Assembly (NCBI GenBank): GCA_000165345.1
Contig: CM000434.1
Span: 1,120,001-1,184,000 of the forward strand
DNA: 64,000 nt
Direction: 5' to 3'
Part shown: positions 4,904-57,027 of the stretch, in pieces
Layout: each line of letters opens with the position of its first letter
How positions within the stretch are numbered: the first letter of the stretch is position 1
Made by a program: the position numbers and the translations under genes
The notes under the pieces: model-generated
What the model saw: only the letters and a program-made list of their open reading frames with translations
What the model was told of the DNA's origin: nothing
Database searches by the model: none

Positions 4904-4924
4904 GATGCATGCATGCATGCATTT
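4904..4924. repeat. (GCAT)n microsatellite / tandem GCATGCA motif array
   Basis: The sequence gatgcatgcatgcatgcattt lies inside a 2.4-kb ORF-free region. Confidence 0.7.
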
Positions 4925-12932: not shown

Positions 12933-13845
12933 TCTCAAAAATCCTAATAACCCCACCAAAAAAGCTCAACAAGAGCAAAAAATAAGTGTGTTAAGAACTT
13001 TCTTATTTCTTAATCCACTTCTCTTTAATTTTGGGAAAATAACCTACAGGGATTTTCTTACTATATTAATATTAATCAATTCTGTTTGTTTTTGGCGGGC
13101 TATACTCCAAGTCAAAGAGCCTGAATTAATAAGGGCAAAGGTTGAGGGGAGAGAAAGAGTTAAAGAAAGTCCAAAGAGAGAAGTTATGACTTCATTTCTC
13201 ATTACCAGTTAGAATTTTTCAGTGTAATCCAAACTAATTTCATGCAATATGATAGTTCTATACTTAAAGAAGTAAGGAAGGAAGAGAAAACTTTTGGCGG
13301 GAAAAGTATAAAGGACAGAATTTATGAATTCAAGTATATATAGTTTTATTTAGCTTTCATCAAATTCGCACTAGTAACATAATAAATTGAGGAAAAACTG
13401 TTAGTTTAGAATATGAACATGAATAAGTTTGTTTTAGCTTAGAATTAGTATGAATACCCAATCTTGTGACTTTGTTAGAGAAGTCTGATAATAGACCGAT
13501 TTCAATGAGCAAGAACCAGAATTCAAGTTGGTCTCAAAGTAGTGATATTCCACAAGGAATACAAGTGAAAATAAATTTTTCCCTTCAAATATAAGGAGTT
13601 TGGTTACTAATATGCCCAATAATTCAGCAGAACCATTGCAGAGGAAGTATCCATCCAAGATGGAAAAATTGTTTGACTAAACGATTTAGAAATGCGAATG
13701 ACTAGCTTATAAATATATTAGTAATTAGGAAAGGTCACAAAAAAGAAAATTAGTTAAATTTTGTAACAAAAAAATGTTCATTTTTTTCAGAAGTTAATAA
13801 TTTAAACTTAAACACCTACATGCTATTTTAACAAATTCCCCACAC

Positions 13846-14598: not shown

Positions 14599-16024
<1,426 letters not shown>

Positions 16025-17541: not shown

Positions 17542-17736
17542 TCTCTCAGAACCTCATATTTATGTGACTTTCTCTATTTCTTTCTTCTTAATTATTAATA
17601 TTATCATCCTTATTTTGGCGCCATATTCTAAATAATTATTAATATAAAGTTAAGCACAAATAAGAAAGAAAAAAAAGTTGAAAAAATTTTCCTGAAATTG
17701 AATATTCAGGAAATTCAAGATCACTTGGTTAATAAC

Positions 17737-19110: not shown

Positions 19111-19311
19111 CTAATTTGTATTCATTTCCTCTTTTGGCCTTTCTGCATTTCTTATCCTCTTAAAGAACTCAGTCTAAATGAGTTGGTTAAAATTTCAATT
19201 TTGGCGCCATATGGGAGTATCAAAAAAGCTTACCTCTAGTTCCTTGCTTGTAATACCTGAACAGACCACAGTTCCTTCATCAATCTGGTACTGTATGAAT
19301 GGCTTTGACAT
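19111..19311 (-). CDS. Candidate unannotated two-exon small ORF (46 aa), hypothetical
   Basis: ATG at 19311..19309. Exon 1, 19311..19234, reads MSKPFIQYQIDEGTVVCSGITSKELE and ends phase 0 at GTAAGC (19233..19228). The acceptor is TCATTTAG with its AG at 19175..19174. Exon 2, 19173..19111, reads TEFFKRIRNAERPKEEMNTN then stop. The region lies between two convergent 3' ends yet carries three E2F-like boxes (19199..19210, 19441..19450, 19644..19655). Confidence 0.25.
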
Positions 19312-19745
19312 ATTCATCTGTTTTATAACTTCAAGAGATACTGGGTCACTTTGAAAGTTAGATTAGAAATCAAAAAGTTGAGTAAGTTCTCGGATCCTGT
19401 GGCTTGCAACGAAGAGGCTTTCCTAGAAGTTACACTAAATCCCCCCGCCATATTTTAGCCACTAAATCCATCCCCTTAGAAACTCTTTTTTACTCAATAT
19501 GAAAACATACCTCTGAACAAATAATCCTCTTTGACAATTTACCATTAAATCAAACAAAAATTCAAAACTAATATTATTATCTTTGAAGAAACGAAAAAAA
19601 AAAGTTAGACTTAATATATTATTAATATGAAAATAATTACGGGTTTGGCGCCAATATAACCTGAAAATACATGCATTAAATGACGTGGCAATGGAAGAAT
19701 AAAATTCAAACTTGCGTATATTAGCAGGCTATTGACAAGGACATT

Positions 19746-22700
19746 TCAAGAGAATGAGCCCTCTTTAAAAATATGTTGAAAATCATTAGAAGCATGGGAA
19801 CTTTTGGTAGAAGGAATGCGATGGCTTTTTTCAACATTATGATGATTATCCAAGTTGAATCTAACCAGACTTTGGTTATTTTTGAGATGATTTGAGCTTT
19901 CAGAATTGTGTTTAGAGAGATTAACTTCACGAGTGGATTTTTTTTCTTGATCAGACATGCTAGTATGTTCTTGAATATCAGAATGGGTTGCATGTGTACC
20001 ATTCGTTTTTTTTACTTTAGAATTTTCAAGATGGCTATCTTTGTAATTATGATTTTTAGTTTCAGATTCTAGTTTTTGGTTTTGAATAGATGTATCAGTG
20101 AACCTATCACTATCTTCAAATTTTATTGAGGATCTATGTCTGGATCCAGGGAGAATACTCGAAGGTTTTGATGATCTGGAACCTTTCGAGGATTTTGGAG
20201 AACGTGTTATCCTTCTATGCCTAACAATGATACCATCTAGGATTTGCCTCCAATACTTGAGTGGTTTCTTTTTTGTATGGTTATGAATAGAGTCCAGCCA
20301 AATGAGTTCACTATCTTTTGTTGGACAAATAAATGTAATTGTAGCTGCATTAGAATAACTTGAATTGTTATTTTTGTCATTAGTGGCGGTGTTAGAGGGA
20401 AGAGAACGACCGTGATCCCTGTATTCAAAACCAAAGTTGTTTGAATTTGATGAGTTATCGTTACTTGTTGGGGATTCTTTTAAGTTGGATGAAATAATGG
20501 AGAATCTAGAGGATACATCGTTAGGATGAGTAGAATCACTCAATTGAATATTATCTGTAAAGCATTTTTCATGTATAGAATATTCATCCAAAAGTAAATC
20601 ATGTGAAAGGTTTTTTTCAAAGATTTCAGCAGAAGTGATATATAGATTGCTCTTGGTTAAAACAACGACTTGTAAGGGATTTGCATTTAATGATGATCCA
20701 ATAACATATAATTTTTCAATTTGAATAACTGGTTCCTTTCCTACTTTAAGGATTGATGGTATCATAAGCTTTTCGAGAGATTTAGTTTTCTTTGCAGAGA
20801 GTTTTCTATCCAGCCTGATTGACATAACATCTGGTAAATCAATTTCTTGTTCTTCATAATACTCTCCTTCATCATCCTCATAAACAATTGTTTGAGTGAG
20901 TTCATGATGATCAGGTTGAGTAGAAATAAGGAGTTTCTCTCTAGTATTATTTGGTACATTTGGCACAACATCAATAAATGCTCGTTCATCATTACTTCCT
21001 GTTGGATTCTTGGTCAATTTAGAGTTGGACATTTTAAAACTATTTCTCTTATTAAGTGATTTGACGCATAATCTAGCGGTTCCAATCTTTTGTATGCAAG
21101 ATTTGACATCTGAATCCTCACCTTTAAGCATTGAAATCCATTTTTCAGCATTGTTAAAATCTATACATGAAAATACCCAAGAATCAATAGTATTTCCTTT
21201 AATTACATTACTAATTTCAAATCCATCTTCAATAGGTTTCCAAGAGTTAGCTGCTGCACCCAGGAATTTGGAAGTCTCAGGTGTAATAGAATTGGAGTGT
21301 ATTGATTGGATTCTGATATTTGATTGACGTATATCTGCAACAAATAACGAATTCCTGGGTTTTTCTATTTTCCCAAGGATAATTGGGATATCAATTCTCT
21401 CTAATCCTGGGGATATAGTAGGTAATGTATATCCAATTTCTCCTTTAACAGAATGAGCTTTATCAATAATATTAGAATTTTCTCTTATAGAAGAATCTTT
21501 GGAATTTTGATCTCCAGTATTACTTGCATCATAAATTACAATAAATGGAAAGCAGTACTTGATGTTAATTTGAGTTAGTTCATAGTCCATCTTAAACACT
21601 TCACTTCCATCCTCTTTTTTAGTATATATACATGCACCCATAAGTGTACCAGTAAAATGTACTTGAGATTCATAGAATTCTTCTGTCTTTAACTTTTCTT
21701 CTTTTGTTCTTCCTATAGCTTCAAGTTTCTTATCTCTACCAATTGTCATAATTTCGATATCTTTTTCAACAATTTCATCAACTTTGATATCTCCATCAGA
21801 AAGTGCTCTCATCAAACCAAAATCATCAAAAATGGACTTTTTGGCTTTATTGGCAGAATTATTAATTTCATTCATCATTTTAAAAGCTGGTAGATTTTTA
21901 TTTATTGTAACATTTTGTTTCTTTGATTGATTATTCTTCCAATCACGTAGTCCCAGCCATTCTTGCAATTTGGGGCCAGTTTGAGCTGCTTTTGATTTTG
22001 CCTTGCTTTTTGTTGGATCAAGCTTGAGTGAACTTTTTGGAGCAATTAAAGGATTTTGAATATTCTTCAGCTTCTCATGCTGAATCATTTTTAGTTTGCT
22101 TGTAAATATTTTATGAACTTTGGCTCTAGCAGCTCGATCACCTTGTTTGCCTTGTGAATAAACTTGAACATTAATTGGTCCAATGTCCTCAACAACAGAA
22201 ATATCTCCTGAGGCAATTTTTGTAATTGCATCAGATAATTTCATTGCATGATCTATATGCTCCTGAGTATATTTATTTGTATCATTTAACACATCATCAA
22301 TGACATCCGGAAATAAATTCCAATATGGAACACTCAAATGTTGAAGTTCCGGAACCAATACTCTATATGAAGAATCTAAAGTTCCCTTAACAACATTACT
22401 AATCTTTACATATCTATTAAGGGAATGGCTTGGAGAGTCTTTGGCTAGCTGAAGTATAATACTAACCTCACCACAAACACTTACGAGTAATTCTTTAAGA
22501 TCAACACAACTATTGCATATATCTTTCCCTCCACGATCAAGTTTGCTCGCTAATAGGTTAAGTTCTGTGAATAGAAGCTGTTCTTCTGATGTTATTGCCC
22601 TTGTTAAGGATTTTTGGGTATCTTCAACATTTAATAGGTTATTTTCAAAGATAGTTTTGCGCTGCTCTGCTAAGGCCGAAATCTCCGAAATCTTTTGCGA

Positions 22701-23222
22701 CATATAAAACGAAGCTGCATTAAGAGATGAGAGAGATTGCAGAAGAATTTGTCTTCCCCTTGGAATAGCTTCAGCCAATGTTAATAACAGATGAGACCCA
22801 TGCCCGTCTATAATTATACATGTTTCACAAATTAACATATAATTACAGCTTGTACAGCAATAAGTCAATTCTTTATTTTTATGTCTTTTACATTGATTCT
22901 TTTGCTTTTCCTGAAGGCTCTTTGCTGTATCTGTTCTAGATATTGACAAATGTTGTACTGATATAATGTCATGGTAACTACCCGCAGAAACATGATTCAT
23001 ATGAGCACATGATGCACAGTAGAAGCACATACATGTGCTACAGTAGAGAGTGCTTTTAGAAATCCAACAGTGCATACATATTCTATCATCCATATTGATC
23101 TTGGATTCTTCACTAGAACTGAACTGTTCAAATAGCTTCCCTATGCTATTATTTATATTCATTGCTCTCGGATCCCGCGTGCTTGCGTTATCCTTATTTG
23201 CTGAATTTTTGTTTTCGAGCAT
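19746..23222 (-). CDS. Large hypothetical protein with tandem B-box-type zinc fingers and a coiled coil (TRIM-like without RING), and a possible PH-like region
   Basis: 1158 aa. The Cys/His-rich N-terminus contains CMHCWISKSTLYCSTCMCFYCASCAHMNHVSAGSYHDI and CKRHKNKELTYCCTSCNYMLICETCIIIDGHGSHLL, followed by a heptad-rich segment. Serine-rich, low-complexity C-terminus. Confidence 0.5.
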   Translation of the reverse strand: MLENKNSANKDNASTRDPRAMNINNSIGKLFEQFSSSEESKINMDDRICMHCWISKSTLYCSTCMCFYCASCAHMNHVSAGSYHDIISVQHLSISRTDTAKSLQEKQKNQCKRHKNKELTYCCTSCNYMLICETCIIIDGHGSHLLLTLAEAIPRGRQILLQSLSSLNAASFYMSQKISEISALAEQRKTIFENNLLNVEDTQKSLTRAITSEEQLLFTELNLLASKLDRGGKDICNSCVDLKELLVSVCGEVSIILQLAKDSPSHSLNRYVKISNVVKGTLDSSYRVLVPELQHLSVPYWNLFPDVIDDVLNDTNKYTQEHIDHAMKLSDAITKIASGDISVVEDIGPINVQVYSQGKQGDRAARAKVHKIFTSKLKMIQHEKLKNIQNPLIAPKSSLKLDPTKSKAKSKAAQTGPKLQEWLGLRDWKNNQSKKQNVTINKNLPAFKMMNEINNSANKAKKSIFDDFGLMRALSDGDIKVDEIVEKDIEIMTIGRDKKLEAIGRTKEEKLKTEEFYESQVHFTGTLMGACIYTKKEDGSEVFKMDYELTQINIKYCFPFIVIYDASNTGDQNSKDSSIRENSNIIDKAHSVKGEIGYTLPTISPGLERIDIPIILGKIEKPRNSLFVADIRQSNIRIQSIHSNSITPETSKFLGAAANSWKPIEDGFEISNVIKGNTIDSWVFSCIDFNNAEKWISMLKGEDSDVKSCIQKIGTARLCVKSLNKRNSFKMSNSKLTKNPTGSNDERAFIDVVPNVPNNTREKLLISTQPDHHELTQTIVYEDDEGEYYEEQEIDLPDVMSIRLDRKLSAKKTKSLEKLMIPSILKVGKEPVIQIEKLYVIGSSLNANPLQVVVLTKSNLYITSAEIFEKNLSHDLLLDEYSIHEKCFTDNIQLSDSTHPNDVSSRFSIISSNLKESPTSNDNSSNSNNFGFEYRDHGRSLPSNTATNDKNNNSSYSNAATITFICPTKDSELIWLDSIHNHTKKKPLKYWRQILDGIIVRHRRITRSPKSSKGSRSSKPSSILPGSRHRSSIKFEDSDRFTDTSIQNQKLESETKNHNYKDSHLENSKVKKTNGTHATHSDIQEHTSMSDQEKKSTREVNLSKHNSESSNHLKNNQSLVRFNLDNHHNVEKSHRIPSTKSSHASNDFQHIFKEGSFS

Positions 23223-23593: not shown

Positions 23594-24913
23594 TCAGAAA
23601 AATTGGCATTCTGACTCAACCAAACCAATTTTATCAAAAATTGCACATACATATTTTCCTATTGGAAGTCTATTGGATTTGAAAATTGTCCATCTCAAAA
23701 TTCTCAAATTGTGGGGAGCTAGATTATTACATGCATTCGGGTTTCCCGCGTATTCTTCGTGCACTTTTCCAATATTTTCAATAAGTATTCGATTATGAGG
23801 TGAGAGAAACCAATTATAGTCAATTTCTGTTGAAAATGCTCTTGTTGGTGGAGGCATGTAGAATGTTCCAAATCCTTCACAATGAACGCTTTTTGGGTAA
23901 TTGACATCGCATAAAAGCTGATTTGAGCAGTAGCCAAGGACGGTGTTAGTTTGTTTAATAGATTGTTTAGCGAGTGAAGTTACAACTGAAGATATATTTA
24001 GAGCCTTAGATACATACCTAATTAATCTCCCAACTATAAAGACCTTTTCTTTGACTTCTTTATAGTAATTATTAGAAAGTTCTTGAGCTTCAATAAAGTT
24101 ATGGGATCCCAGCAATGATGTAATTGGGTCAATAACAACTAGTTTGAGTCTTTTTAGTTCTTTTTGTTTGATTCTTGGTAGGTCATATAGTAGTTTTTGT
24201 AGTTGAGCACAATCATCTACAGTCACTACACAAATGTTCGAGAGGAGGAGTTCCAAATTATGACTAATTTCTGTTGAATATTGTGAGTTTTGAGTCATTT
24301 CAAGTTCTCCACACAATCTTTGAAAACATTTCTTCATGAAAATTGGATCAAAACTATTGTCGGTTGTTTGAATGTAAATAACTTGATATGGAGAAATTCC
24401 TTCTAACTCTGTTTCAACATTTAAGCTTTCTAATGTTGAGTTAAACATAGTATTTGATATAATCCAGTGAACAACCCTTCTGATAACTGGTAGATCATGC
24501 CCAAAAAGTTCAGTGGTTTCACCTGCAAGAAATCCTCCATCAAAAAAATCCATTAGTATATCGGATCCTAGGTTTATATGCGATCTTAAGTCTCCATTCT
24601 GGGACCAGTTTTCTCTAGCTTCCTCTAATAATTTTTTACCTGTTACAAATCCAGTTTCAATACCAATACCACAAAGGTTAATTTTTTGGTCTTCTGTGAC
24701 GTTATTAGGGAAGCATGTAATTTTTTCTCTACATTTTGAGTAAATCCTTGCTTCTTGAAAGCTTTTTAGCCCTTTTTTTCTTAGGTTATCTAATAAAAGC
24801 TGTGGAATTGTTTTTATATCATTTTTAACGAGCTCATTTTTTGTTTCCTCATCAAGTTCAAGAATGTCAAAGAGATCGTTGTTCTCTTTACTTTTACTGA
24901 AATCGTCAGGCAT
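23594..24913 (-). CDS. RAD51/RecA-family paralog with a degenerate Walker A (probably ATPase-inactive)
   Basis: 439 aa. It has an N-terminal HhH-like segment (IKTIPQLLLDNLRKKGLKSFQEA). LGSDILMDFFDGGFLAGETTELFGHDLP aligns to RAD51 [32 protein letters not shown] with the GKT replaced. The Walker B-like stretch LKLVVIDPITSLL matches ALLIVDSATALY. FIVGRLIRYVSKALNISSVVTSLAKQ matches [27 protein letters not shown]. Confidence 0.55.
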   Translation of the reverse strand: MPDDFSKSKENNDLFDILELDEETKNELVKNDIKTIPQLLLDNLRKKGLKSFQEARIYSKCREKITCFPNNVTEDQKINLCGIGIETGFVTGKKLLEEARENWSQNGDLRSHINLGSDILMDFFDGGFLAGETTELFGHDLPVIRRVVHWIISNTMFNSTLESLNVETELEGISPYQVIYIQTTDNSFDPIFMKKCFQRLCGELEMTQNSQYSTEISHNLELLLSNICVVTVDDCAQLQKLLYDLPRIKQKELKRLKLVVIDPITSLLGSHNFIEAQELSNNYYKEVKEKVFIVGRLIRYVSKALNISSVVTSLAKQSIKQTNTVLGYCSNQLLCDVNYPKSVHCEGFGTFYMPPPTRAFSTEIDYNWFLSPHNRILIENIGKVHEEYAGNPNACNNLAPHNLRILRWTIFKSNRLPIGKYVCAIFDKIGLVESECQFF

Positions 24914-25195
24914 TGTAAAAATATCAAGTAATTATTTTGACCAGTTTTAGATACTTTTAATCTACTAGATAAGTCCATACATATATATACATATACATAA
25001 GTTTATTTATTATTTTGATTATTCCAACTTAACTCCTACTTATCCATTAAGTATAGTGGGGGAACGGTATAATTAACCAAAAGTTTATGAAAAAATTACC
25101 CATAAAAAAAAAAAATCAACAATTAACTGGAAGACTCAATTATAGTTTATTTTGATCTTAGAAAGATGCCACCAGATTCATTAATAAATATTTTC

Positions 25196-25281
25196 TATCC
25201 ACATGAAGTGTCAAATTTGCATGGTATATTTTATGCATGCAAACACCGGTATAGGAATGTGTGCAATAATGTGGACAAATA
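25196..25281. promoter_or_regulatory. Composite module (ATCCACATG, GTCAAATTTGCATGG, ATGCATGCA, ACCGGTAT, GTGGACAAAT) in the divergent promoter between the RAD51-paralog and the COWP-like gene
   Basis: The sequence is atccacatgaagtgtcaaatttgcatgg...tatgcatgcaaacaccggtatagg...atgtggacaaat. Confidence 0.45.
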
Positions 25282-25518
25282 AATAATAATAGATTAAAGA
25301 ATATAATTAAATATTTAAAGAAAATTTTTCGTTAATAATGACTAATCATGAAAGTTATAATATGAATCTTTAATTGATTTTAAAAAATGCATATTTTCAC
25401 ATAAATTAAAAAGAGGTAATTATTTTTCAATTAGAAAATTCAATAAGCAAGCTCGCAAAAATGTTTAAATAAATCAGTCAAATTTAGCAATTAGTATGAA
25501 AAGTTGGAATTACTAGTA

Positions 25519-27096
25519 ATGATGAGCAAAAAGGAGTTTGAGCGTTTACAAGCAGTTATTTTAGTATGTTTATTATATTTATGTATCCATGTTGAAGGAA
25601 ATGGCAGAAATGTAACAGGATTTGTACCAGAATTTAGGAATTCAAGAAGAGAGCCAATTCTTACAAGAGCACCTCCGGTTACAATACTTGGAGATCCAAG
25701 CATATCACTAACTATTCCAGCAAGAAAAGTTTGTTATAAGGGCTCATTTGATTCGAAGTATAATTCGTGTACTTATATAGATAAGAATGATGAGGCAGTT
25801 CCAATTTATAAGGTAAGTAATATGAAGGATTTCCAACTAATATAAATTTAATAACAAAATGGAAATTAATATTTCTTTGTAAAGCCTTGTATAGGTAATT
25901 CAACATTGGTAGATGGATATTGCATTGGAACAATGATTTCAGATTACGAAAAGTATTGTCATGGATAGTAAGTGCAATTGAAATGAATTATGAGATTTGG
26001 TTAATTCAGGTAAATTAAAGCTTTAGATTGAATAATGAGGATTTATGCATAAATTACTCAACCTATACTCCGCCTAGAAGGATTTGCCCTGAAGGATTTG
26101 AGTTGAAATCGGTAGGTCAACAACAATTGCAAGTTAAAAGGTGTGTGAGGAAATTGTATTCGAGACCAATAAAAATTCCTGTAACGGATTCTTTGGGAAG
26201 AGAAAAGTATAAAACAGAATGTAGTCACAAAGATAATAAGTATTGCCCAATAGTTAGGGCACCACAACCTGCTAAATATGTAATGCAATGCCCTAAAGGC
26301 GCAAAGTTAGTTAGTTCTTTTGATAACTCAAAAGCAACATGCGAAACCAAAGTAACAGTTGTTCCAGACTTTGATAGAAGATGTGGGGGAGAGCAGTCTG
26401 GGTGGTTTTGGGATGGGGAATTAAATGTATGTTTAAAACTAAGAACACATGAGCCAAAGTTACGCTGCCCACATCCAAGACCAAAATTAGGGATGGAAAT
26501 AGGAAATTGGGATACACCAGAATATGAACCTCATCCAATATATACATGTTTGGCAAATAGAGCTAGAGCAATAGTAAAGGGTAAGTGTGTAAATATATTC
26601 AGTTAATTAATTTATACAAATATTTCAAAAAACAAATTTCAGGTTGCCCACCTGGTTACACGTTAAAAAAAAGAAAGTGTTTCAGACTTATTAGGCTTCC
26701 TTATGAATTGGATTGTGAGCATGCTGAAGGGTAAGTTTTAATTAATATGTTCTTAAACAATAGTTAAAATCACATCAAACTATTTACTCTTCTTATTTCT
26801 TCCCCACTATTTATATTTCTAGGTTCAAGTTTGAATATGACGCCTCTACAAAAAAAGCAGTTTGTAGATTCAAATTTAATCAGCAGGACTACATTGGTCT
26901 TCCAAGTTATCCTTCTTCAAGAGAAGCATTGACTTCCCATAAAATATTTAAGCATGCTAATATTGAGGATATAATTCGGGCATATCAGCAAGGTACTTTA
27001 AATATCAGGACAATAGAGGAGGAACTAGTAAAAGAATACGACCTATTGGCAAAAATGGAACAAGGAAAGGAGCAAGTTGAACGCCCAGAAGAGTAA
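25519..27096 (+). CDS. Secreted cysteine-rich COWP-like protein (oocyst-wall-protein type I CPxG[FY]xL repeats), five exons
   Basis: The exons are 25519..25812, 25885..25967, 26021..26580, 26643..26730 and 26823..27096. All four donors are GTAAGT (25813, 25968, 26581, 26731). The acceptors are AAAG, AAAG, TTTCAG and TTCTAG, and the phases are consistent (0, 2, 1, 2), giving about 432 aa. The signal peptide reads MMSKKEFERLQAVILVCLLYLCIHVEG. Repeats include RICPEGFELKS...C, QCPKGAKLVS...C and GCPPGYTLKKRKC. The track showed only fragments, with TTG called as M at 25504 and 26028. Confidence 0.55.
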
Positions 27097-27257: not shown

Positions 27258-28889
27258 ATGTGGAGTTCTTTAGAGTTAAGTAGGCCTTTATTAAAGGCAT
27301 TAAGCGATTTGAACTTTGTAGAAGCAACGTTAATTCAGAAGGAGGTAATTCCATTGGCATTATCGGGAAGAGATATTATGGCTGAGGCAGAAACAGGAAG
27401 CGGAAAGACAGCAGCATTTTTATTACCTGCATTGGAAAGATTATTGAGGTCACCATATGTTCGAAATTCCAGGGTATCATCATTGGGAAGAGTTGGTGGA
27501 GCAGTTGGTACAAAGGTGTTGGTATTATTGCCAAGTCGTGAACTAGCAATGCAATGCTTTGGAGTATTAGAATCTTTGACAAAATATTGCCCAGTGATAA
27601 CCAGGGCAGTAGTAACAGGTGGGATGAATATTCAACAGCAAGAAAGAATACTTAAATGCCAACCACATATTGTTATAGCAACACCAGGAAGAATTTTGGA
27701 TATGCTATTAAATACATTAAGCATACAGTTAGAATTATTGGAAATAATTATATTGGATGAAGCTGACAGATTATTGGATATGGGGTTTCGTCAAGAATGT
27801 TTGGAAATTCTTAAATATTCATCTAGAACTCGCCAGACAATGTTATTTTCAGCAACATTAAGTAGAAGTGTAACAGATTTAGCTTTATTGGCTCTAAATA
27901 ATCCATGCAAAGTATCTACAGTTGGTCTCAAATCAGGGATCAAATCTGTAGGAAGTTCAGGAGAATCAGAATTATTATCTATTACAGGTTTATCATCAAC
28001 ATTAGAACAAGAATTTCTTGAGATTACTAAAGAAGAAGAAAGAGAAGGCGCTTTGTTTTATATTTTAAATAAGATATTTACAAAAAGGGTTATAGTCTTT
28101 TTCCAAACTAAAAAAGAAGCTCATAGATGTGCAATTTTAGGAAATATTTTTGGATTATCATCAACAGAGTTACATGGATTCTTACCACAAGAAAAACGTT
28201 TAGAAAATTTTTCAAAGTTTAAATCTGGACAAGTTGATATTTTATTTGCTAGCGAACTAGCAGCAAGAGGATTGGATGTACAAGATGTTTCTGCAGTTAT
28301 CAATTTCACTATTCCATTAGAAGCTTCTAGATATATTCATAGAGTTGGAAGAACTGCAAGAATTGGATCTAAAGGCAATTGCATTACAATTTACACTCGA
28401 AGCGAAAGAAGCCAGTTAAAAGCTTTAATGAAACAGGTACTAAGAGCAGGTAATAAGTCTTCTGTTGCAGGAAGAGACACAAAAGAAAATGTATCTTCAA
28501 TTATGAAGAAGAGAACTCTTGCTACTAATAACATTAATCAATGGGTTGAGAAAATATCTAATTCTGAAAAACAAGTCAAAGATGCAATAAAAGCAGATAT
28601 TACAGAAAAAGAACTTAGAATTGCTGAGATGCAAGTAAATAAAGCGCAAAATATTCTTTTACACAAAAAAGATATTGAATCCAGGCCAAGAAAAAAGTGG
28701 ATAAAAAGCAAAAAAGAAAAGGATTTAACTAGAGAATCTGCAAAAAAGGATTTATTAAAATCTTGTTCTTCACTAATTGGCCAACATTCGGCATTTAATC
28801 AAGTTAAGAATACTCTTCAAAATGATTTAAAATCCAGTAACAAAACGGTTACTAATAAAAACAAAAAAAGAAAATTATCACAAAAATGA
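27258..28889 (+). CDS. DEAD-box ATP-dependent RNA helicase (DDX27/Drs1-like) with a basic C-terminal tail
   Basis: 543 aa. The Q-motif region is followed by motif I AETGSGKTAAFLLP, Ia PSRELA, II DEADRLLDMGF, III SAT and VI HRVGRTAR. The C-terminus is K/R-rich. Confidence 0.85.
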   Translation: MWSSLELSRPLLKALSDLNFVEATLIQKEVIPLALSGRDIMAEAETGSGKTAAFLLPALERLLRSPYVRNSRVSSLGRVGGAVGTKVLVLLPSRELAMQCFGVLESLTKYCPVITRAVVTGGMNIQQQERILKCQPHIVIATPGRILDMLLNTLSIQLELLEIIILDEADRLLDMGFRQECLEILKYSSRTRQTMLFSATLSRSVTDLALLALNNPCKVSTVGLKSGIKSVGSSGESELLSITGLSSTLEQEFLEITKEEEREGALFYILNKIFTKRVIVFFQTKKEAHRCAILGNIFGLSSTELHGFLPQEKRLENFSKFKSGQVDILFASELAARGLDVQDVSAVINFTIPLEASRYIHRVGRTARIGSKGNCITIYTRSERSQLKALMKQVLRAGNKSSVAGRDTKENVSSIMKKRTLATNNINQWVEKISNSEKQVKDAIKADITEKELRIAEMQVNKAQNILLHKKDIESRPRKKWIKSKKEKDLTRESAKKDLLKSCSSLIGQHSAFNQVKNTLQNDLKSSNKTVTNKNKKRKLSQK

Positions 28890-29031: not shown

Positions 29032-29080
29032 TATCCACATTAATTCCAAATGCATGCATGCATGCAAAAAACACGTAATT
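29032..29080. promoter_or_regulatory. Composite module (TATCCACAT, TGCATGCATGCATGCA, ACACGTAATT) in the tail-to-tail region between the DEAD-box and roadblock genes
   Basis: The sequence is tatccacattaattccaaatgcatgcatgcatgcaaaaaacacgtaatt. Confidence 0.4.
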
Positions 29081-30603: not shown

Positions 30604-33600
30604 TCATGAATCTAACCTACCAAATTCATTTTCTTCAACATCTCTTGCTTCTCTTGAAACCCCAATTTCCTTTTCTTCATCATCATCCTTTTCTTCCTCT
30701 AAATCTTTAGAAGATGATTGAGCCTGGTTTACCTTTTCTTTAATTGCAGTGATAGAAACTGGGATTATTGAGGCTGCTCCATCTGATGAAGATACTTGAA
30801 TCTGGCCTTTGAAGGTTTGATCTTCAAAAGTTGAGGGAATTACAGCTTTCCAACCAACTTTGTAAATCATTTGAGCTCTTTGTAAAGGAGGAACAATTGT
30901 CTCACTAAGTTGAAACCAAGGAACCTTTGGATTCTCTGGATACAATTCTATTGAAAATTCTGATGTAGGAAACTTTTCAGTACATGGTATTCCAACTCCT
31001 AAAGATATTAATATAGAAATTAGTTAGTTAATTCTGTTTCTCTATTATTTAAAAAAAAACTTAATATAACTTACCTCTTATCCCATCAATACTTTCCCAT
31101 CCAAGCATTGTTGAAGATGAAATTCTACTAATTGCCAAACTTCCTTTCTCTGAGGATGAAATTCCTCTAGAATCTTCTAAATCCTCCCAGGGAATACTCA
31201 AATAATTGAATTTCACTGATCCATTACTGTTCAACACACATTGAAATGTTGCTGATTTTGAATTGTATTGTTCAGATTTTAGAAATACATTTCTCCATTC
31301 TATTACAAACTCCCACCTCCTTTTCTTCCCCTCTTCCTTTTCTTCTCCATCATCCTCTTCTTCATACTCTAGTCTTTCCTCTCTTCTATATCTACTACCA
31401 ACTCCACTACCAAATCCTCCTCCAAAATCTTCCTCATCTTCTTCAGTCTTTAAGAATGTCACAATTTTCGTATTCTCTCTTCTTCCTCTTGTTGTGAAAT
31501 CTGTCCATAAAGGGGCTAAAATACCATGAGGAGGAGCATATGAGGGTAATGCTGGTACAAATGCTTCACTATATATTGGACTGAAAGAAATAAATCCATT
31601 TACTGAGACATAAATCTCGTCAATCTTCTCCCCAAGAAAGTACCAACTTCTTGGAAGATTTACTTTTTGCACTCCATCATCTGAGTTAGATAAGTCTGTG
31701 AGAATTGTTTCTTGATTAATTCCAATATTTACCCAATCAAACTTTACATTAGCCTTGGGTAAAATCACATCATCTAAAGATACATATAACTTATTTTTAC
31801 CTTCTTCAGAATCCATTCCTTCTAATCTATGAATAATCCTCTTCTTAGAAGGAAGATTCTCTCCAGAAAGAACCATCTTAAAGTAAGATTTTGATGGAGA
31901 TAGATCTTTAATAGAAGTATTACTTCTTGAATAGTCTTTTCTTTTACTTTCTCTTTCAAATCCTGTTGAACTTGGATCTCTTAAAGACTTAAATCTTAAG
32001 TAAATTCTAGGCTTAAATGAATTCTCTAATCCTTTAAATAATATAAAACCAGAAATTGTTGTTTCTGGAATTCTGATTACTCTATTAATTGAAGGAGGAC
32101 GAATTTCTATTCCATATCCTTTACAATAAAGTTTGATTGCAAGTCTTTCAGTTCCAACTGGGAATGAACTTGATGAAGATGATGACAAGATATAGTTACT
32201 GTTTGGGGATATAATATTATTTGATAGAGTATTTATTATTGATGATGTCTCTGTAAATAAGTTACTTCTTACATATGGTATCTTTGTAGACTTGGCTGAT
32301 ATCTTATTTGATGAAAATGAAGAAGATGAAGATGACATTCCTCCTTTGTTATATCTCAACATTAAATGACCACTTATAAATCCTTCTAAAGAGTGTGGAA
32401 TACAACTCACTTGAAGATCCTTGTTTGTCTGATCCTCACCTACTGTTAAAATGGTACCCAATGGTGGATATACTTTAAACTTTCCTTTTCTTTTAGATCC
32501 TAATTCTCCTTCCATATTGACAAATTCAACCATATATTCTAAGGTACCAATACCTGAATTAGAAATTGGAATCAATGTTTTTGTTCCTTCTAATCCCATA
32601 AAAGATAATCCAAGATTTGTACTATTTCCATTTGGTAAAATCGCTTTTGGTTTTGGAATACTAACAACATTAATTATTGTTTTAAGCCTACCTTGAGCCA
32701 AAGTAACTTCACGATCATTAGAATCCACTAGCTTGACAACCAAAGTGGATGTAAAAGATCCAGGCTTCTCCCCAAAAGCTTTAAGTTTAAGTATTGAACT
32801 TGATTGAGGTCCTATAGTATCAGGAGCTTTAAAAGTGATCCAAGAGGTACCAATTCTAGGAAATTCTTTACCATTTTCTTGGTTATAAGCTTCCTGACTC
32901 ATCATTTGAACAGCTCTATGAATATTTAATGTCCCAGAGGTACGAACAGAATTTCTTAATGTTGTAAGTACTGTTACTGATCTTAATATAAGCGTTTTTG
33001 CTTGATCAAAAGTCATACTTGGATCAAAAGCATATAATAAAGCTGCAGCTCCTGAAACAAATGGACATGCCATAGAAGTCCCTGATAACCTCTTATAACC
33101 TTTATTGGCACTAGTAGATAATATATCTACTCCTGGAGCTGCCATATCTACACTTCTATGACCATAATTTGAAAAGACACCAAGTCTTCCATGTATATCA
33201 ATTGCAGCTACAGATAATACATTTGGAAGCTGGTAAGCTGATGGATAAGTTGGTCTAATATCATTATTATTTCTATCATTACCTGCTGCAACAACAAAGA
33301 GCATGTTCTTATCAATACTCCTCTTAATAGCATCATATGTAGCCTGGGAAAATGATCCTCCTCCCCAACTGTTAGATAAAATATTAGCTCCCATCTTAAT
33401 AGCATAGTTAATAGCTTTAACACTATCACTTAGAAAACCAACTCCATTTCCTCTTAGAAACTTAAGAGCCATAATTTTAACTCCCTTCCAGTTAATCCCA
33501 GAAATACCTTCATGATTATTCCCTTTTGCTGCAATAGTACCTGCACAATGTGTACCATGTCCTTCATCATCAACTGGTGCTCCTCTATTATTTGCAAAAT

Positions 33601-34654
33601 CATAGCCATATATATCATCAACATAACCATTCATATCATCATCAACTCCTGGTCTTCCATATAACTCTTTTTCATTAACCCACATATTCTCAACCAAATC
33701 TGGATGAGTATAATCTACACCAGTATCTATAACAGCAACAATTACTTCCCTTTTTGGATGGTTTTCAGGAGTATAATATACTCCAGATCCTTTAGATACG
33801 GATGTATTAATACCTAAATGTTTCCATGCCATCAAAACTTTTGAGTCAGTGTTTGCAACTCTATTATACATTCCCCATTGTTCAGAGAATTTGGGATCAT
33901 TTGGATATATTGCTCCAGAATCTGAACTAATTCCAAAATCTGCAAGCCTAACTTCCTGATCTGGTTCAACATATTCAACTTCATCACTATGTAAAAAACT
34001 TGCAGAAAGTTTTGAAATATATTCAGATGCTTTAGAATTGTTAAATACTTCAACAATCATCATATCTAATGCTTCGAGAACTGTAGCAGATTTGATTCCA
34101 ACAAGCTCATCAGCAGATTCTGATAAAGCTGAAACAACTCTTGTTAAGAATGCTACACCATCTAATTTAGGATATTGACCATTTTTTGACATAATTCCTG
34201 CAACTTTCAACTCTTTGACAGCTTTACTTAAGACTTTTTCCTTATACTTAATAATAAGCCTTCCTGGAATAACTTTAGATCTCCTTCCTTGACCTCTAGA
34301 GACTTTTTCTGAATTAAATTCTTGATTTGAATCCTTTTCTTGGTAATAATAATCATCTTCATCATCCATATTACCCATTTCTGAGAATTCTCCAAGGATA
34401 TGTTCTTGTTCATAATCTTCTTCTGGAGGTTTTTGTTGTTTCATAATATATGGACTAAATACTTTCTCAACAACTTGTACTTCAGGAGTTGCTGATTGGT
34501 CTGCAGGGTTTTTTATAACTAACTCTAAATCAGAGCTCCGACCTTCAACTACATTAATTGAAATTGAGCTGGTATTGAATATATTACAAATAACCCTTTT
34601 TTGAAAAAATACCAATAAATATGGCAACAACTTGAAAATATTTACCTTTTTCAT
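30604..34654 (-). CDS. SUB1: Subtilisin-like serine protease (SUB1-like subtilase), two exons (34654..31075 and 30998..30604)
   Basis: The catalytic triad motifs are VAVIDTGVDYTHPDL (Asp), HGTHCAGTIAA (His) and GTSMACPFVSGAAALL (Ser), with a signal-anchor-like N-terminus. The track ORF 31061..34654 runs into a GTAAGT donor (31074..31069) after ...SIDGIR, phase 1. A 76-nt intron follows. The acceptor CTTTAG has its AG at 31000..30999. Exon 2 is G-VGIPCTEKFPTSEFSIELYPENPKVPWFQLSETIV... and contains the track ORF 30604..30945, whose M is a TTG. The spliced product is about 1324 aa. Confidence 0.8.
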
Positions 34655-54865: not shown

Positions 54866-54937
54866 ACACGTAATTTGTGCATGCATGCAAAAAAGTTTAC
54901 AAGAAAATAGATGACGTGTTTGCATGTGGACAATACG
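54866..54937. promoter_or_regulatory. Composite module (CACACGTAATT, TGTGCATGCATGCAAAA, GACGTG, TTTGCATGTGGACAATACG) between the beta-adaptin gene and the next gene
   Basis: The sequence is cacacgtaatttgtgcatgcatgcaaaaaag...gacgtgtttgcatgtggacaatacg. Confidence 0.4.
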
Positions 54938-56955: not shown

Positions 56956-57027
56956 GGTACCGGTACCTATCATAAATTTTTATATTGTCTCGAGATCCAA
57001 TTTTTAGATATGCATGCATGCAAAAGT
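56956..57027. promoter_or_regulatory. Composite module (12-bp palindrome GGTACCGGTACC and ATATGCATGCATGCAAAAG) in a tail-to-tail intergenic region
   Basis: The sequence is ggtaccggtacctatcataaatttttatattgtctcgagatccaatttttagatatgcatgcatgcaaaag. Confidence 0.35.

What the first reader, a model, noticed from the sequence alone, without database searches (positions are those of the whole stretch)
23594..24913. RAD51 paralog with an intact fold but the Walker A lysine-threonine box destroyed
The 439-aa protein keeps the RAD51 N-terminal HhH region, the GG..G..TE.FG lead-in and a Walker B-like hydrophobic strand plus the downstream VV.TNQV-like strand. However, GEFRTGKTQ is replaced by GHDLPVIRR, so it almost certainly cannot bind or hydrolyse ATP. 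Such pseudo-ATPase RAD51 paralogs (Shu-complex, XRCC2 or SWSAP1-like) act as regulators of RAD51 filaments, and I am not aware of one being characterised in Cryptosporidium. It is divergently paired with the COWP-like gene, sharing a 590-bp promoter region that carries the composite module.
Basis: partly seen in the sequence, partly recalled or inferred. Interest (0 to 1): 0.55.

Follow-up and report, generated by a model that had tools for sequence, protein, structure and literature searches.

The report
Cryptosporidium RAD51D-like protein lacking an ATP-binding loop
This Cryptosporidium parvum gene (cgd6_4800) encodes a conserved relative of the DNA-repair helper protein RAD51D whose ATP-binding loop has been replaced across the whole genus, so it probably works as an ATP-free structural subunit that helps RAD51/DMC1 recombinases; a 2011 survey already listed it as a RAD51 paralogue.

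Summary
Window 23594..24913 (-) is one intact 439-aa ORF, identical to C. parvum XP_627807.1 / cgd6_4800. GHDLPVIRR sits exactly where RAD51-family proteins carry GxxxxGKT/Q.

Single-sequence Pfam, NCBIfam and PDB searches miss the family. A Cryptosporidium-only profile finds it:
- hhalign P=8.6e-11 against non-canonical RAD51 paralogs and 1.2e-5 against RAD51. Reversed and shuffled controls score 11-25 against 84.7.
- Among the five human paralogs only RAD51D matches strongly (96%, P=3e-9, near full length). It is best in the N-terminal domain, core and C-terminus separately.

So the protein is RAD51D-like and has an N-terminal domain. It is not XRCC2-, SWSAP1- or Shu-like.

Walker A K/T are I144/R145 in all 11 orthologs, including syntenic C. 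muris. The Walker B Asp (D262) and the trans "lysine finger" (K412) are invariant. The remodelled pocket is among the most conserved segments, and dN/dS is about 0.14.

Dobson et al. 2011 already listed cgd6_4800 as a RAD51 paralogue ("RAD51-4") in a supplement. The RAD51D affinity and the conserved P-loop loss appear undescribed. Function is inferred; I found no expression or partner data.

The parts
23594..24913 (-). Complete single-exon CDS of cgd6_4800, 439 aa: RAD51D-like RAD51 paralog
24710..24880 (-). N-terminal helical domain (res 12-68), equivalent to the RAD51/RAD51D NTD
   Evidence: hhalign aligns res 19-74 to RAD51D 11-70 (score 29.8, best of the five human paralogs) and to the RAD51 NTD. 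AF2 predicts helices 14-17, 22-30, 36-41 and 51-66 with pLDDT 72-89. Res 33-44 is the 4th most conserved 12-mer
24503..24568 (-). Lead-in 'GSDILMDFFDGGFLAGETTELF' (res 116-137): the conserved RAD51-family G-S..LD..L.GG...G..TE..G element and beta1
   Evidence: G127 invariant and G116, L120, G126, G131, T134, E135 >=90% conserved across 50 RAD51-family sequences
24476..24502 (-). Degenerate Walker A / ex-P-loop 'GHDLPVIRR' (res 138-146): RAD51D G107=G138, K113->I144, T114->R145, Q115->R146
   Evidence: Column alignment; residue map; I144, R145 and R146 invariant in 11 orthologs, and 144-155 is the 2nd most conserved 12-mer; model pLDDT 92-95 here
24341..24376 (-). beta2 strand 'YIQTTDNSFDPI' (res 180-191), equivalent to RAD51 'YIDTEGTFRP'; the catalytic-Glu position is not an acid (T184 or a variable D/N/S185), as in RAD51D (N138)
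   Evidence: Alignments; most conserved 12-mer in the family; absence of the catalytic Glu in human RAD51D/XRCC2
24128..24148 (-). Walker B 'LKLVVID' (res 256-262); D262 = RAD51D D206
   Evidence: D262 invariant in all 50 aligned RAD51-family sequences; map; AF2 strand 258-262
23963..23992 (-). Post-Walker B strand 'SSVVTSLAKQ' (res 308-317), equivalent to 'AVVxTNQV'
   Evidence: Alignment; AF2 strand 308-317
23828..23962 (-). Lineage-specific insertion (res 318-362) at the L2-loop position, with an invariant PPP (354-356); longer in the C. bovis clade
   Evidence: Unaligned to RAD51D in hhalign; alignment; low pLDDT at 319-332
23777..23821 (-). 'DYNWFLSPHNRILIE' (res 365-379): the paralog-type 'LGxSW...TR(I/L)' element; W368=RAD51D W268, R375=R275, and RAD51D G265 (ssDNA-binding motif) -> invariant D365
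   Evidence: G265 as an ssDNA-motif residue
23663..23698 (-). 'LRWTIFKSNRLP' (res 406-417): lysine-finger motif; K412=RAD51D K297, S413=S298, R415=R300, P417=P302
   Evidence: Map; K in paralogs against D in RAD51 at this column; 3rd most conserved 12-mer; role of K297 in trans ATP coordination
24914..25518 (.). 605-bp divergent intergenic region shared with a spliced, signal-peptide-bearing Cys-rich gene (25519..26606, +); one TGCATGCA palindrome at 25234..25241 and no E2F-like TTYGGCGS site
   Evidence: Sequence; motif scans; the same gene order in C. meleagridis, C. ubiquitum and C. muris

Best explanation
cgd6_4800 encodes the Cryptosporidium counterpart of RAD51D, a non-catalytic RAD51 paralog. 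It has the full RAD51D architecture: an N-terminal helical domain, a linker and a RecA-type core. Its own nucleotide site has been converted from a permanently ATP-occupied pocket, as in human RAD51D, into an ATP-free pocket that is nevertheless strongly conserved (GKT -> V-I-R, followed by a second invariant Arg). Shown: family membership, RAD51D as the closest relative, genus-wide loss of Walker A Lys/Thr, retention of the Walker B Asp and of the trans-acting lysine finger, purifying selection and conserved synteny. Inferred: the protein acts as a structural subunit of a small RAD51-paralog complex. The likeliest partner is the only other reported C. parvum paralog, cgd2_4070, giving a heterodimer like C. 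elegans RFS-1/RIP-1 in which one subunit keeps the Walker boxes and the other keeps only Walker B. In that model the Walker B strand and the remodelled pocket form the subunit interface. K412 reaches in trans into the ATP site of the neighbouring protomer, either the partner paralog or the terminal RAD51/DMC1. The complex would bind or cap the ends of RAD51/DMC1-ssDNA filaments and stabilise them during replication-associated repair and the obligatory meiosis of the parasite.
For: Pseudo-ATPase state: K113->I144 and T114->R145, invariant in 11 orthologs including syntenic C. muris.
Retained elements: D262 and K412-S-x-R-x-P.
Constraint: dN/dS 0.14. The ex-P-loop, beta2 and lysine-finger windows are the three most conserved 12-mers.
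Biology of the template: human RAD51D binds non-exchangeable ATP, does not hydrolyse it, and uses K297 in trans. RFS-1/RIP-1 is a precedent for a Walker-B-only partner. C. parvum has only two reported paralogs.
Against: No single-sequence search detects the family, and identity to human RAD51D is only 23%. Orthology rests on one RAD51D representative, and long-branch effects are possible. The best core-only match is a metagenomic protein (P0021) that is itself nearest to RAD51B. The usable AF2 model depended on an MSA seeded with RAD51-family sequences, so the fold result is not independent of the sequence result. Human RAD51D needs its Walker A and normally sits between RAD51C and XRCC2; no XRCC2-like protein has been reported in C. 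parvum. The partner cgd2_4070 could not be retrieved or analysed. No expression, localisation or interaction data were found: the gene is absent from the sexual-stage differential-expression supplements I searched. Residual nucleotide or phosphate binding through R145/R146 cannot be excluded by sequence analysis.
Confidence: 0.7

Rival explanations
1. It is a RAD51-family pseudo-ATPase but not a RAD51D ortholog. It would be a fast-evolving, Cryptosporidium-specific derivative of another paralog lineage (RAD51B/RAD51C/XRCC3-like, or a duplicate of cgd2_4070), and its resemblance to RAD51D would be convergent or a long-branch artefact. Its function would still be as an accessory subunit for RAD51/DMC1.
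For: The only significant database-wide outgroup hit, P0021, is nearest to RAD51B and beats RAD51D on the core segment (63 vs 46). HMM scores against PDB are close for RAD51D, RAD51C and RAD51 (13.5, 11.9 and 10.2 bits). Foldseek E-values across paralogs differ by less than 10-fold. Other apicomplexans are reported to have a single paralog, and no apicomplexan ortholog outside the genus was detected.
Confidence: 0.2
2. The protein still binds a nucleotide or another phosphate ligand non-canonically. The invariant R145/R146 and H149 would substitute for the Walker A Lys, so it would be an atypical NTP-binding subunit and not an empty-pocket one.
For: The ex-P-loop and the following helix are among the most conserved segments. 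The loop length is unchanged. The Walker B Asp is retained. Two invariant arginines sit where T114/Q115 lie in RAD51D. There is a precedent for overlooked Walker A-like motifs in divergent paralogs: Psy3.
Against: All three glycines after G138 and the Lys-Thr pair are replaced (G-H-D-L-P-V-I-R-R), and a Pro and an Asp sit in the loop that must wrap the phosphates. In human RAD51D this motif is intolerant to missense changes. No known P-loop variant matches this sequence, which is my own knowledge and not a test.
Confidence: 0.07
3. It is an unrelated P-loop/RecA-superfamily protein (DnaB/KaiC/Elp4-like) or a decaying pseudogene, with no role in recombination.
For: Public annotation says only 'P-loop containing NTP hydrolase' or 'hypothetical'. 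Pfam and NCBIfam give no hits. DnaB and KaiC also appear among the structural matches.
Confidence: 0.03

Closest known systems
Human RAD51D (RAD51 homolog 4), subunit of the RAD51B-RAD51C-RAD51D-XRCC2 and XRCC3-RAD51C-RAD51D-XRCC2 complexes
   Different: Human RAD51D keeps a canonical GxxxxGKT that holds a non-exchangeable ATP and is mutation-intolerant. The Cryptosporidium protein has G-H-D-L-P-V-I-R-R. It is also about 110 aa longer, with a 45-aa insertion at the L2 position and a roughly 20-aa insertion before the last strands, and RAD51D G265 in the ssDNA motif is an invariant Asp. The XRCC2 and RAD51B/XRCC3 partners are not reported in C. parvum.
C. elegans RFS-1/RIP-1 heterodimer (RIP-1 as the Walker-B-only subunit)
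   Same: A minimal two-paralog system in which one subunit lacks Walker A but keeps a Walker B-like strand that mediates dimerisation. The complex binds filament ends and stabilises or remodels RAD-51 filaments. C. parvum likewise has just two reported paralogs.
   Different: RIP-1 has no detectable sequence homology to RAD51 and no N-terminal domain. The Cryptosporidium protein retains clear full-length RAD51D-type homology. The analogy is functional and was not tested here.
Shu-complex RAD51 paralogs (yeast Csm2/Psy3/Shu1; human SWSAP1) and XRCC2
'RAD51-4' entry for C. parvum in Dobson et al. 2011 (Mol Microbiol 81:434)
   Same: It is the same gene, cgd6_4800, already catalogued as one of two C. 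parvum RAD51 paralogues alongside cgd2_4070.
   Different: It appears only as an identifier in a supplementary list. The names are explicitly not meant to infer orthology, and neither the missing Walker A nor the RAD51D affinity is mentioned.

Membership tests
RAD51/RecA-fold recombinase family (Pfam Rad51 PF08423 clan) | Statistically significant sequence or profile similarity to the family across the ATPase core | tested here: met
   Single-sequence Pfam fails, but profile-profile hhalign gives P=8.6e-11 and 1.2e-5 with clean reversed and shuffled controls. The only outgroup hit in 1.84e9 proteins is a Pfam-Rad51 protein.
RAD51/RecA-fold recombinase family (Pfam Rad51 PF08423 clan) | RecA-type alpha/beta core fold | tested here: met
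RAD51/RecA-fold recombinase family (Pfam Rad51 PF08423 clan) | Walker A GxxxxGK(T/S) | tested here: not met
   G138-H-D-L-P-V-I-R-R, with Lys->Ile144 and Thr->Arg145, invariant in 11 orthologs. It is therefore a family member by descent and fold, but not a canonical ATPase.
RAD51/RecA-fold recombinase family (Pfam Rad51 PF08423 clan) | Walker B hhhhD | tested here: met
   L-K-L-V-V-I-D262; the Asp is invariant across all 50 aligned sequences.
Non-canonical (RADbeta-type) RAD51 paralogs, as opposed to RAD51/DMC1 recombinases | Paralog-type C-terminal motifs: 'LGxxW' in place of 'GGxxxAH', and Lys (lysine finger) in place of Asp in 'xDSP' | tested here: met
   W368 aligns with the paralog Trp, and K412 with the paralog Lys where RAD51 has Asp. 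The hhalign score to the paralog profile (84.7) exceeds that to the RAD51 profile (47.8). The lysine finger is described as paralog-specific.
RAD51D orthologous group | Closest relationship to RAD51D rather than to RAD51B/C or XRCC2/3 | tested here: met
RAD51D orthologous group | N-terminal helical domain present (absent in XRCC2) | tested here: met
   Res 19-74 align to RAD51D 11-70, and AF2 predicts helices with pLDDT 72-89.
RAD51D orthologous group | No catalytic Glu after beta2 (non-hydrolysing subunit) | tested here: met
   RAD51D N138 aligns to T184, and the neighbouring D185 is variable (D/N/S). The feature is described.
RAD51D orthologous group | Structural, non-exchangeable ATP bound through Walker A K113/T114 | tested here: not met
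   K113->I144 and T114->R145. Actual nucleotide binding cannot be tested in silico.
RAD51D orthologous group | Assembly between RAD51C and XRCC2 in a paralog complex | not testable with these tools
   The partner sequences (cgd2_4070 and any XRCC2-like protein) could not be retrieved, and no multimer prediction was available.

The most novel reading that the evidence does not exclude
Cryptosporidium has reduced the four-subunit RAD51-paralog machinery to a two-subunit one. In it, a RAD51D ortholog has replaced the 'structural ATP' that human RAD51D cannot do without by its own side chains (invariant I144-R145-R146, D140, H149), while still using its lysine finger in trans. It would be a natural ATP-mimic design showing how a RAD51-paralog interface can be held in a permanently 'ATP-like' state, and a parasite-specific, meiosis-relevant target.
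Probability: 0.3. Interest if true: 0.6.

Novelty: new member of a known kind. Interest (0 to 1): 0.35.

Why it matters
Cryptosporidium must go through sex and meiosis in every host, and it shows high recombination, yet its recombination mediators have not been studied. Assigning cgd6_4800 as a RAD51D-type subunit improves an uninformative annotation ('P-loop NTPase' or 'hypothetical') and names a concrete candidate for RAD51/DMC1 filament control, together with cgd2_4070. For the homologous-recombination field it is a natural experiment. Human RAD51D holds a non-exchangeable ATP, and its Walker A is intolerant to mutation. Here a whole genus has dispensed with that motif while conserving the surrounding pocket, the Walker B Asp and the trans lysine finger. 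That can show what the structural ATP actually contributes to paralog-complex assembly. The significance is moderate: degenerate-Walker RAD51 paralogs are a known theme, and the gene was already catalogued as a paralogue.

Tried and rejected
- Single-sequence Pfam, NCBIfam and PDB phmmer searches gave no RAD51 hit, only noise (Exportin-5 E 0.012; Tse5 E 0.31).
- The first AF2 run on the 10-sequence Cryptosporidium-only MSA gave pLDDT 42 and was not used for fold search.
- A word-indexed homolog search with the mixed alignment A2 did not widen the family.
- The afdb50 fold library was unavailable.
- DNA for the P0021 contig was unavailable because the file was too large.
- Expression: cgd6_4800 is absent from the supplements held for Tandel 2019 and from the AP2-F paper's differential-expression tables, where DMC1 cgd7_1690 is present. 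The meiosis/recombination paper PMC11213348 does not mention RAD51 or DMC1. Neither sexual-stage nor constitutive expression could therefore be established.
- Literature searches for cgd2_4070 and for cgd6_4810/4820 returned nothing.
- Sequencing error or pseudogene was considered and rejected.
- Shu/XRCC2-type identity was considered and rejected.
- An unrelated P-loop family was considered and rejected.
- I looked for an E2F-like site in the promoter as a hint of S-phase regulation and found none in 24914..25518. I draw no conclusion from that.

Full report
OBSERVATION. Window 23594..24913 (minus strand) is one uninterrupted ATG-to-stop ORF of 439 aa. Its product is identical to C. parvum Iowa II XP_627807.1/EAK90063.1. 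[quoted passage not shown] The window is therefore C. parvum chromosome 6. The flanking genes fit: the B-box protein cgd6_4790 at 19746..23222 (-) and the DEAD-box helicase cgd6_4830 at 27258..28889 (+).

IS IT A RAD51 RELATIVE? Single-sequence searches say nothing. Pfam, NCBIfam and PDB phmmer return only noise. Homologs detectable by sequence are confined to Cryptosporidium, at 36-98% identity. A profile of these sequences gives sub-threshold but collinear hits to RAD51D, RAD51C and RAD51 in the PDB. Across 1.84 billion representative proteins it gives exactly one non-Cryptosporidium hit (P0021, E=5.4e-4). That protein matches Pfam Rad51 at 3.9e-14 and has an intact GKT.

Profile-profile comparison settles the question. 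The Cryptosporidium-only alignment A3, compared with an independent alignment of canonical RAD51s, gives 81% probability and P=1.2e-5 over 225 columns, running from the N-terminal domain to the strand after Walker B. Compared with an alignment of non-canonical paralogs it gives 97% and P=8.6e-11. Reversing A3 or shuffling its columns drops the score from 84.7 to 11-25. With a relaxed alignment threshold the match runs collinearly to the C-terminus. In a 50-sequence MAFFT alignment, G127, G138 and D262 are invariant across all RAD51-family members, and R375, S413 and G430 are nearly invariant.

WHICH PARALOG? I recalled the five human classical paralog sequences and verified them as full-length, essentially identical matches to PDB chains (625-838 bits). 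The residue numbers quoted in the structural literature (K113, T114, D206 and K297 of RAD51D, and others) fall on the expected residues. The evidence then points one way:
- hhalign of A3 against each human sequence gives RAD51D 96.1% (P=3e-9, 293 columns, query 19-427 to target 11-311), RAD51C 30%, RAD51B 3.3%, XRCC3 1.0% and XRCC2 0.2%.
- After splitting the profile, RAD51D is the best human paralog in the N-terminal domain (29.8 against at most 20.5), the core (45.7 against 35.4) and the C-terminal segment (23.3 against at most 18.0).
- An AF2 model built on the 50-sequence MSA (pLDDT 74.8, pTM 0.71) has human RAD51D as top Foldseek hit (8faz_D, E=1.5e-15).
- A crude NJ tree recovers the split {Cryptosporidium clade + human RAD51D} in 193 of 200 bootstraps.

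There are caveats. Only one RAD51D representative was used and the tree method is simple. The AF2 MSA was seeded with RAD51-family rows, and the shallow-MSA model failed at pLDDT 42. The best core-only match is P0021, which is itself closest to RAD51B. I put RAD51-paralog identity at above 0.95 and RAD51D orthology at about 0.7-0.75.

ANATOMY OF THE NUCLEOTIDE SITE. Mapping onto human RAD51D gives 308 aligned residues at 23.4% identity:
- G107 = G138
- K113 -> I144, T114 -> R145, Q115 -> R146
- D206 = D262
- W268 = W368
- R275 = R375
- K297 = K412, S298 = S413, R300 = R415, P302 = P417

The loop length is unchanged. The three glycines after G138 and the Lys-Thr pair are all replaced (G-H-D-L-P-V-I-R-R). 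The catalytic-Glu position is not an acid, just as in RAD51D. I144-R145-R146, H149 and W150 are invariant in 11 orthologs. These include C. muris (GCA_000006515.1), whose gene sits in the same neighbourhood: subtilase, DEAD helicase, a roughly 405-aa gene, this gene, then the B-box gene. The loss therefore predates the radiation of the genus.

The gene is under purifying selection. dN/dS is 0.14 for parvum/meleagridis/ubiquitum comparisons and 0.31 against the saturated C. muris. The three most conserved 12-residue windows of the family are the beta2 strand (180-191), the ex-Walker-A segment with its helix (144-155) and the lysine-finger motif (406-417). Walker B (256-267) ranks sixth. The old nucleotide pocket has been repurposed under constraint; it has not decayed.

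MECHANISM (INFERRED). In human BCDX2 and X3CDX2, RAD51D and XRCC2 hold non-exchangeable ATP and cannot hydrolyse it because they lack the catalytic Glu. RAD51C K328 reaches into the RAD51D site, and RAD51D K297 reaches into the XRCC2 site. The complexes nucleate, extend or cap RAD51 filaments. Saturation genome editing shows that the human RAD51D Walker A and B motifs are intolerant to missense changes.

The Cryptosporidium protein keeps the Walker B Asp and the trans lysine finger but lacks any means of canonical cis ATP binding. Its most likely role is as a nucleotide-free structural subunit of a reduced paralog complex. C. parvum is reported to have only two RAD51 paralogues, cgd2_4070 and cgd6_4800. 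The closest functional precedent is C. elegans RFS-1/RIP-1, where a Walker-competent subunit pairs through Walker B strands with a subunit that has only a Walker B-like motif, and the dimer stabilises or remodels RAD-51 filament ends.

Three points remain untested: whether R145/R146 mimic the missing phosphates, what K412 contacts, and whether the invariant D365 (in place of the RAD51D ssDNA-motif G265) reduces DNA contact.

PRIOR KNOWLEDGE AND NOVELTY. Dobson et al. 2011 (PMC3170485) list C. parvum RAD51 = cgd5_410, DMC1 = cgd7_1690, 'RAD51-3' = cgd2_4070 and 'RAD51-4' = cgd6_4800 in their supplementary file. They state that the names do not imply orthology. UniRef labels the C. canis ortholog 'Rad51-like C-terminal domain-containing'. 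The 'RAD51 paralog' identity is therefore already on record, although genome annotations still say 'hypothetical' or 'P-loop NTPase'. I found no description of the missing Walker A, the RAD51D affinity or any functional work. Only one paper mentions the gene ID in its main text, as an SNV-bearing gene.

Degenerate-Walker RAD51 paralogs are a known class; RIP-1 and the Shu proteins are examples. I classify this as a new member of a known kind, with the twist that it is a RAD51D-type protein without the structural ATP site.

The core claim is right: a RAD51 paralog with an intact fold and a destroyed Lys-Thr box. The proposed analogues (Shu, XRCC2, SWSAP1) are wrong, because this protein has the N-terminal domain and matches RAD51D.

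The divergent neighbour is real and syntenic. It is a spliced, signal-peptide-bearing, Cys-rich gene with no Pfam match, so 'COWP-like' is unverified. The intergenic spacer is 605 bp and carries one TGCATGCA palindrome.

GAPS. No expression or stage data were found. The partner sequence could not be retrieved, and multimer modelling was not available.

Noticed in passing
window-wide; e.g. 4906-4921, 25234-25241, 29051-29066, 54878-54889, 57011-57022: The palindrome TGCATGCA occurs 26 times against 0.72 expected from shuffles. The copies I placed against genes lie between ORFs, and several form overlapping tandem copies (TGCATGCATGCATGCA). From my own knowledge this matches the AP2-type cis-element reported upstream of many Cryptosporidium genes. 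One copy lies in the cgd6_4800 divergent promoter.
   Followed up: partly
window-wide; e.g. 13091-13098, 13293-13300, 17614-17621, 19200-19207, 19644-19651: The E2F-like motif TTYGGCGS occurs 14 times against 0.89 expected. None lies in the 24914-25518 spacer upstream of the RAD51D-like gene, whereas two lie just downstream of the B-box gene's stop (19200, 19644).
   Followed up: no
window 25519-26606 (+): The divergent neighbour appears to be a spliced gene. An ATG-initiated signal-peptide ORF (25519-25845) and a Cys-rich ORF in another frame (26028-26606) correspond to single 405-409-aa gene calls in C. muris (L001 3912-5426) and C. meleagridis (L002 856-2412). It has no Pfam hit, so 'COWP-like' is unverified. 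Introns are uncommon in Cryptosporidium (my own knowledge).
   Followed up: partly
window 23828-23962 (-), res 318-362 of the protein: A 45-aa insertion at the position of the RAD51 L2 DNA-binding loop carries an invariant Pro-Pro-Pro (354-356) and conserved Cys/Tyr residues. The C. bovis/ryanae clade has a further 16-aa Asn/Ser-rich insertion here. Its function is unknown.
   Followed up: no
window 19746-23222 (-): The downstream neighbour cgd6_4790 is a 1158-aa protein whose only recognisable domain is one B-box zinc finger (res 107-146, E 1.7e-5). The rest is low-complexity and Ser/Asn-rich. It is syntenic with the RAD51D-like gene in all four species examined.
   Followed up: no
P0021 (JGI metagenome 3300072015, 4.6-kb contig): The only non-Cryptosporidium protein found by the family profile is a 417-aa RAD51B-like paralog with long Asn/Ser/Gly/Asp low-complexity inserts, from an unidentified AT-rich eukaryote. 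Its contig DNA could not be fetched.
   Followed up: partly
window 14819-16024 (+) and 31061-34654 (-): There is a tubulin-family ORF whose N-terminus seems truncated in the simple ORF call (the match starts at profile position 30, so probably an upstream exon), and a subtilase with a C-terminal NIDO domain (probably cgd6_4840).
   Followed up: no
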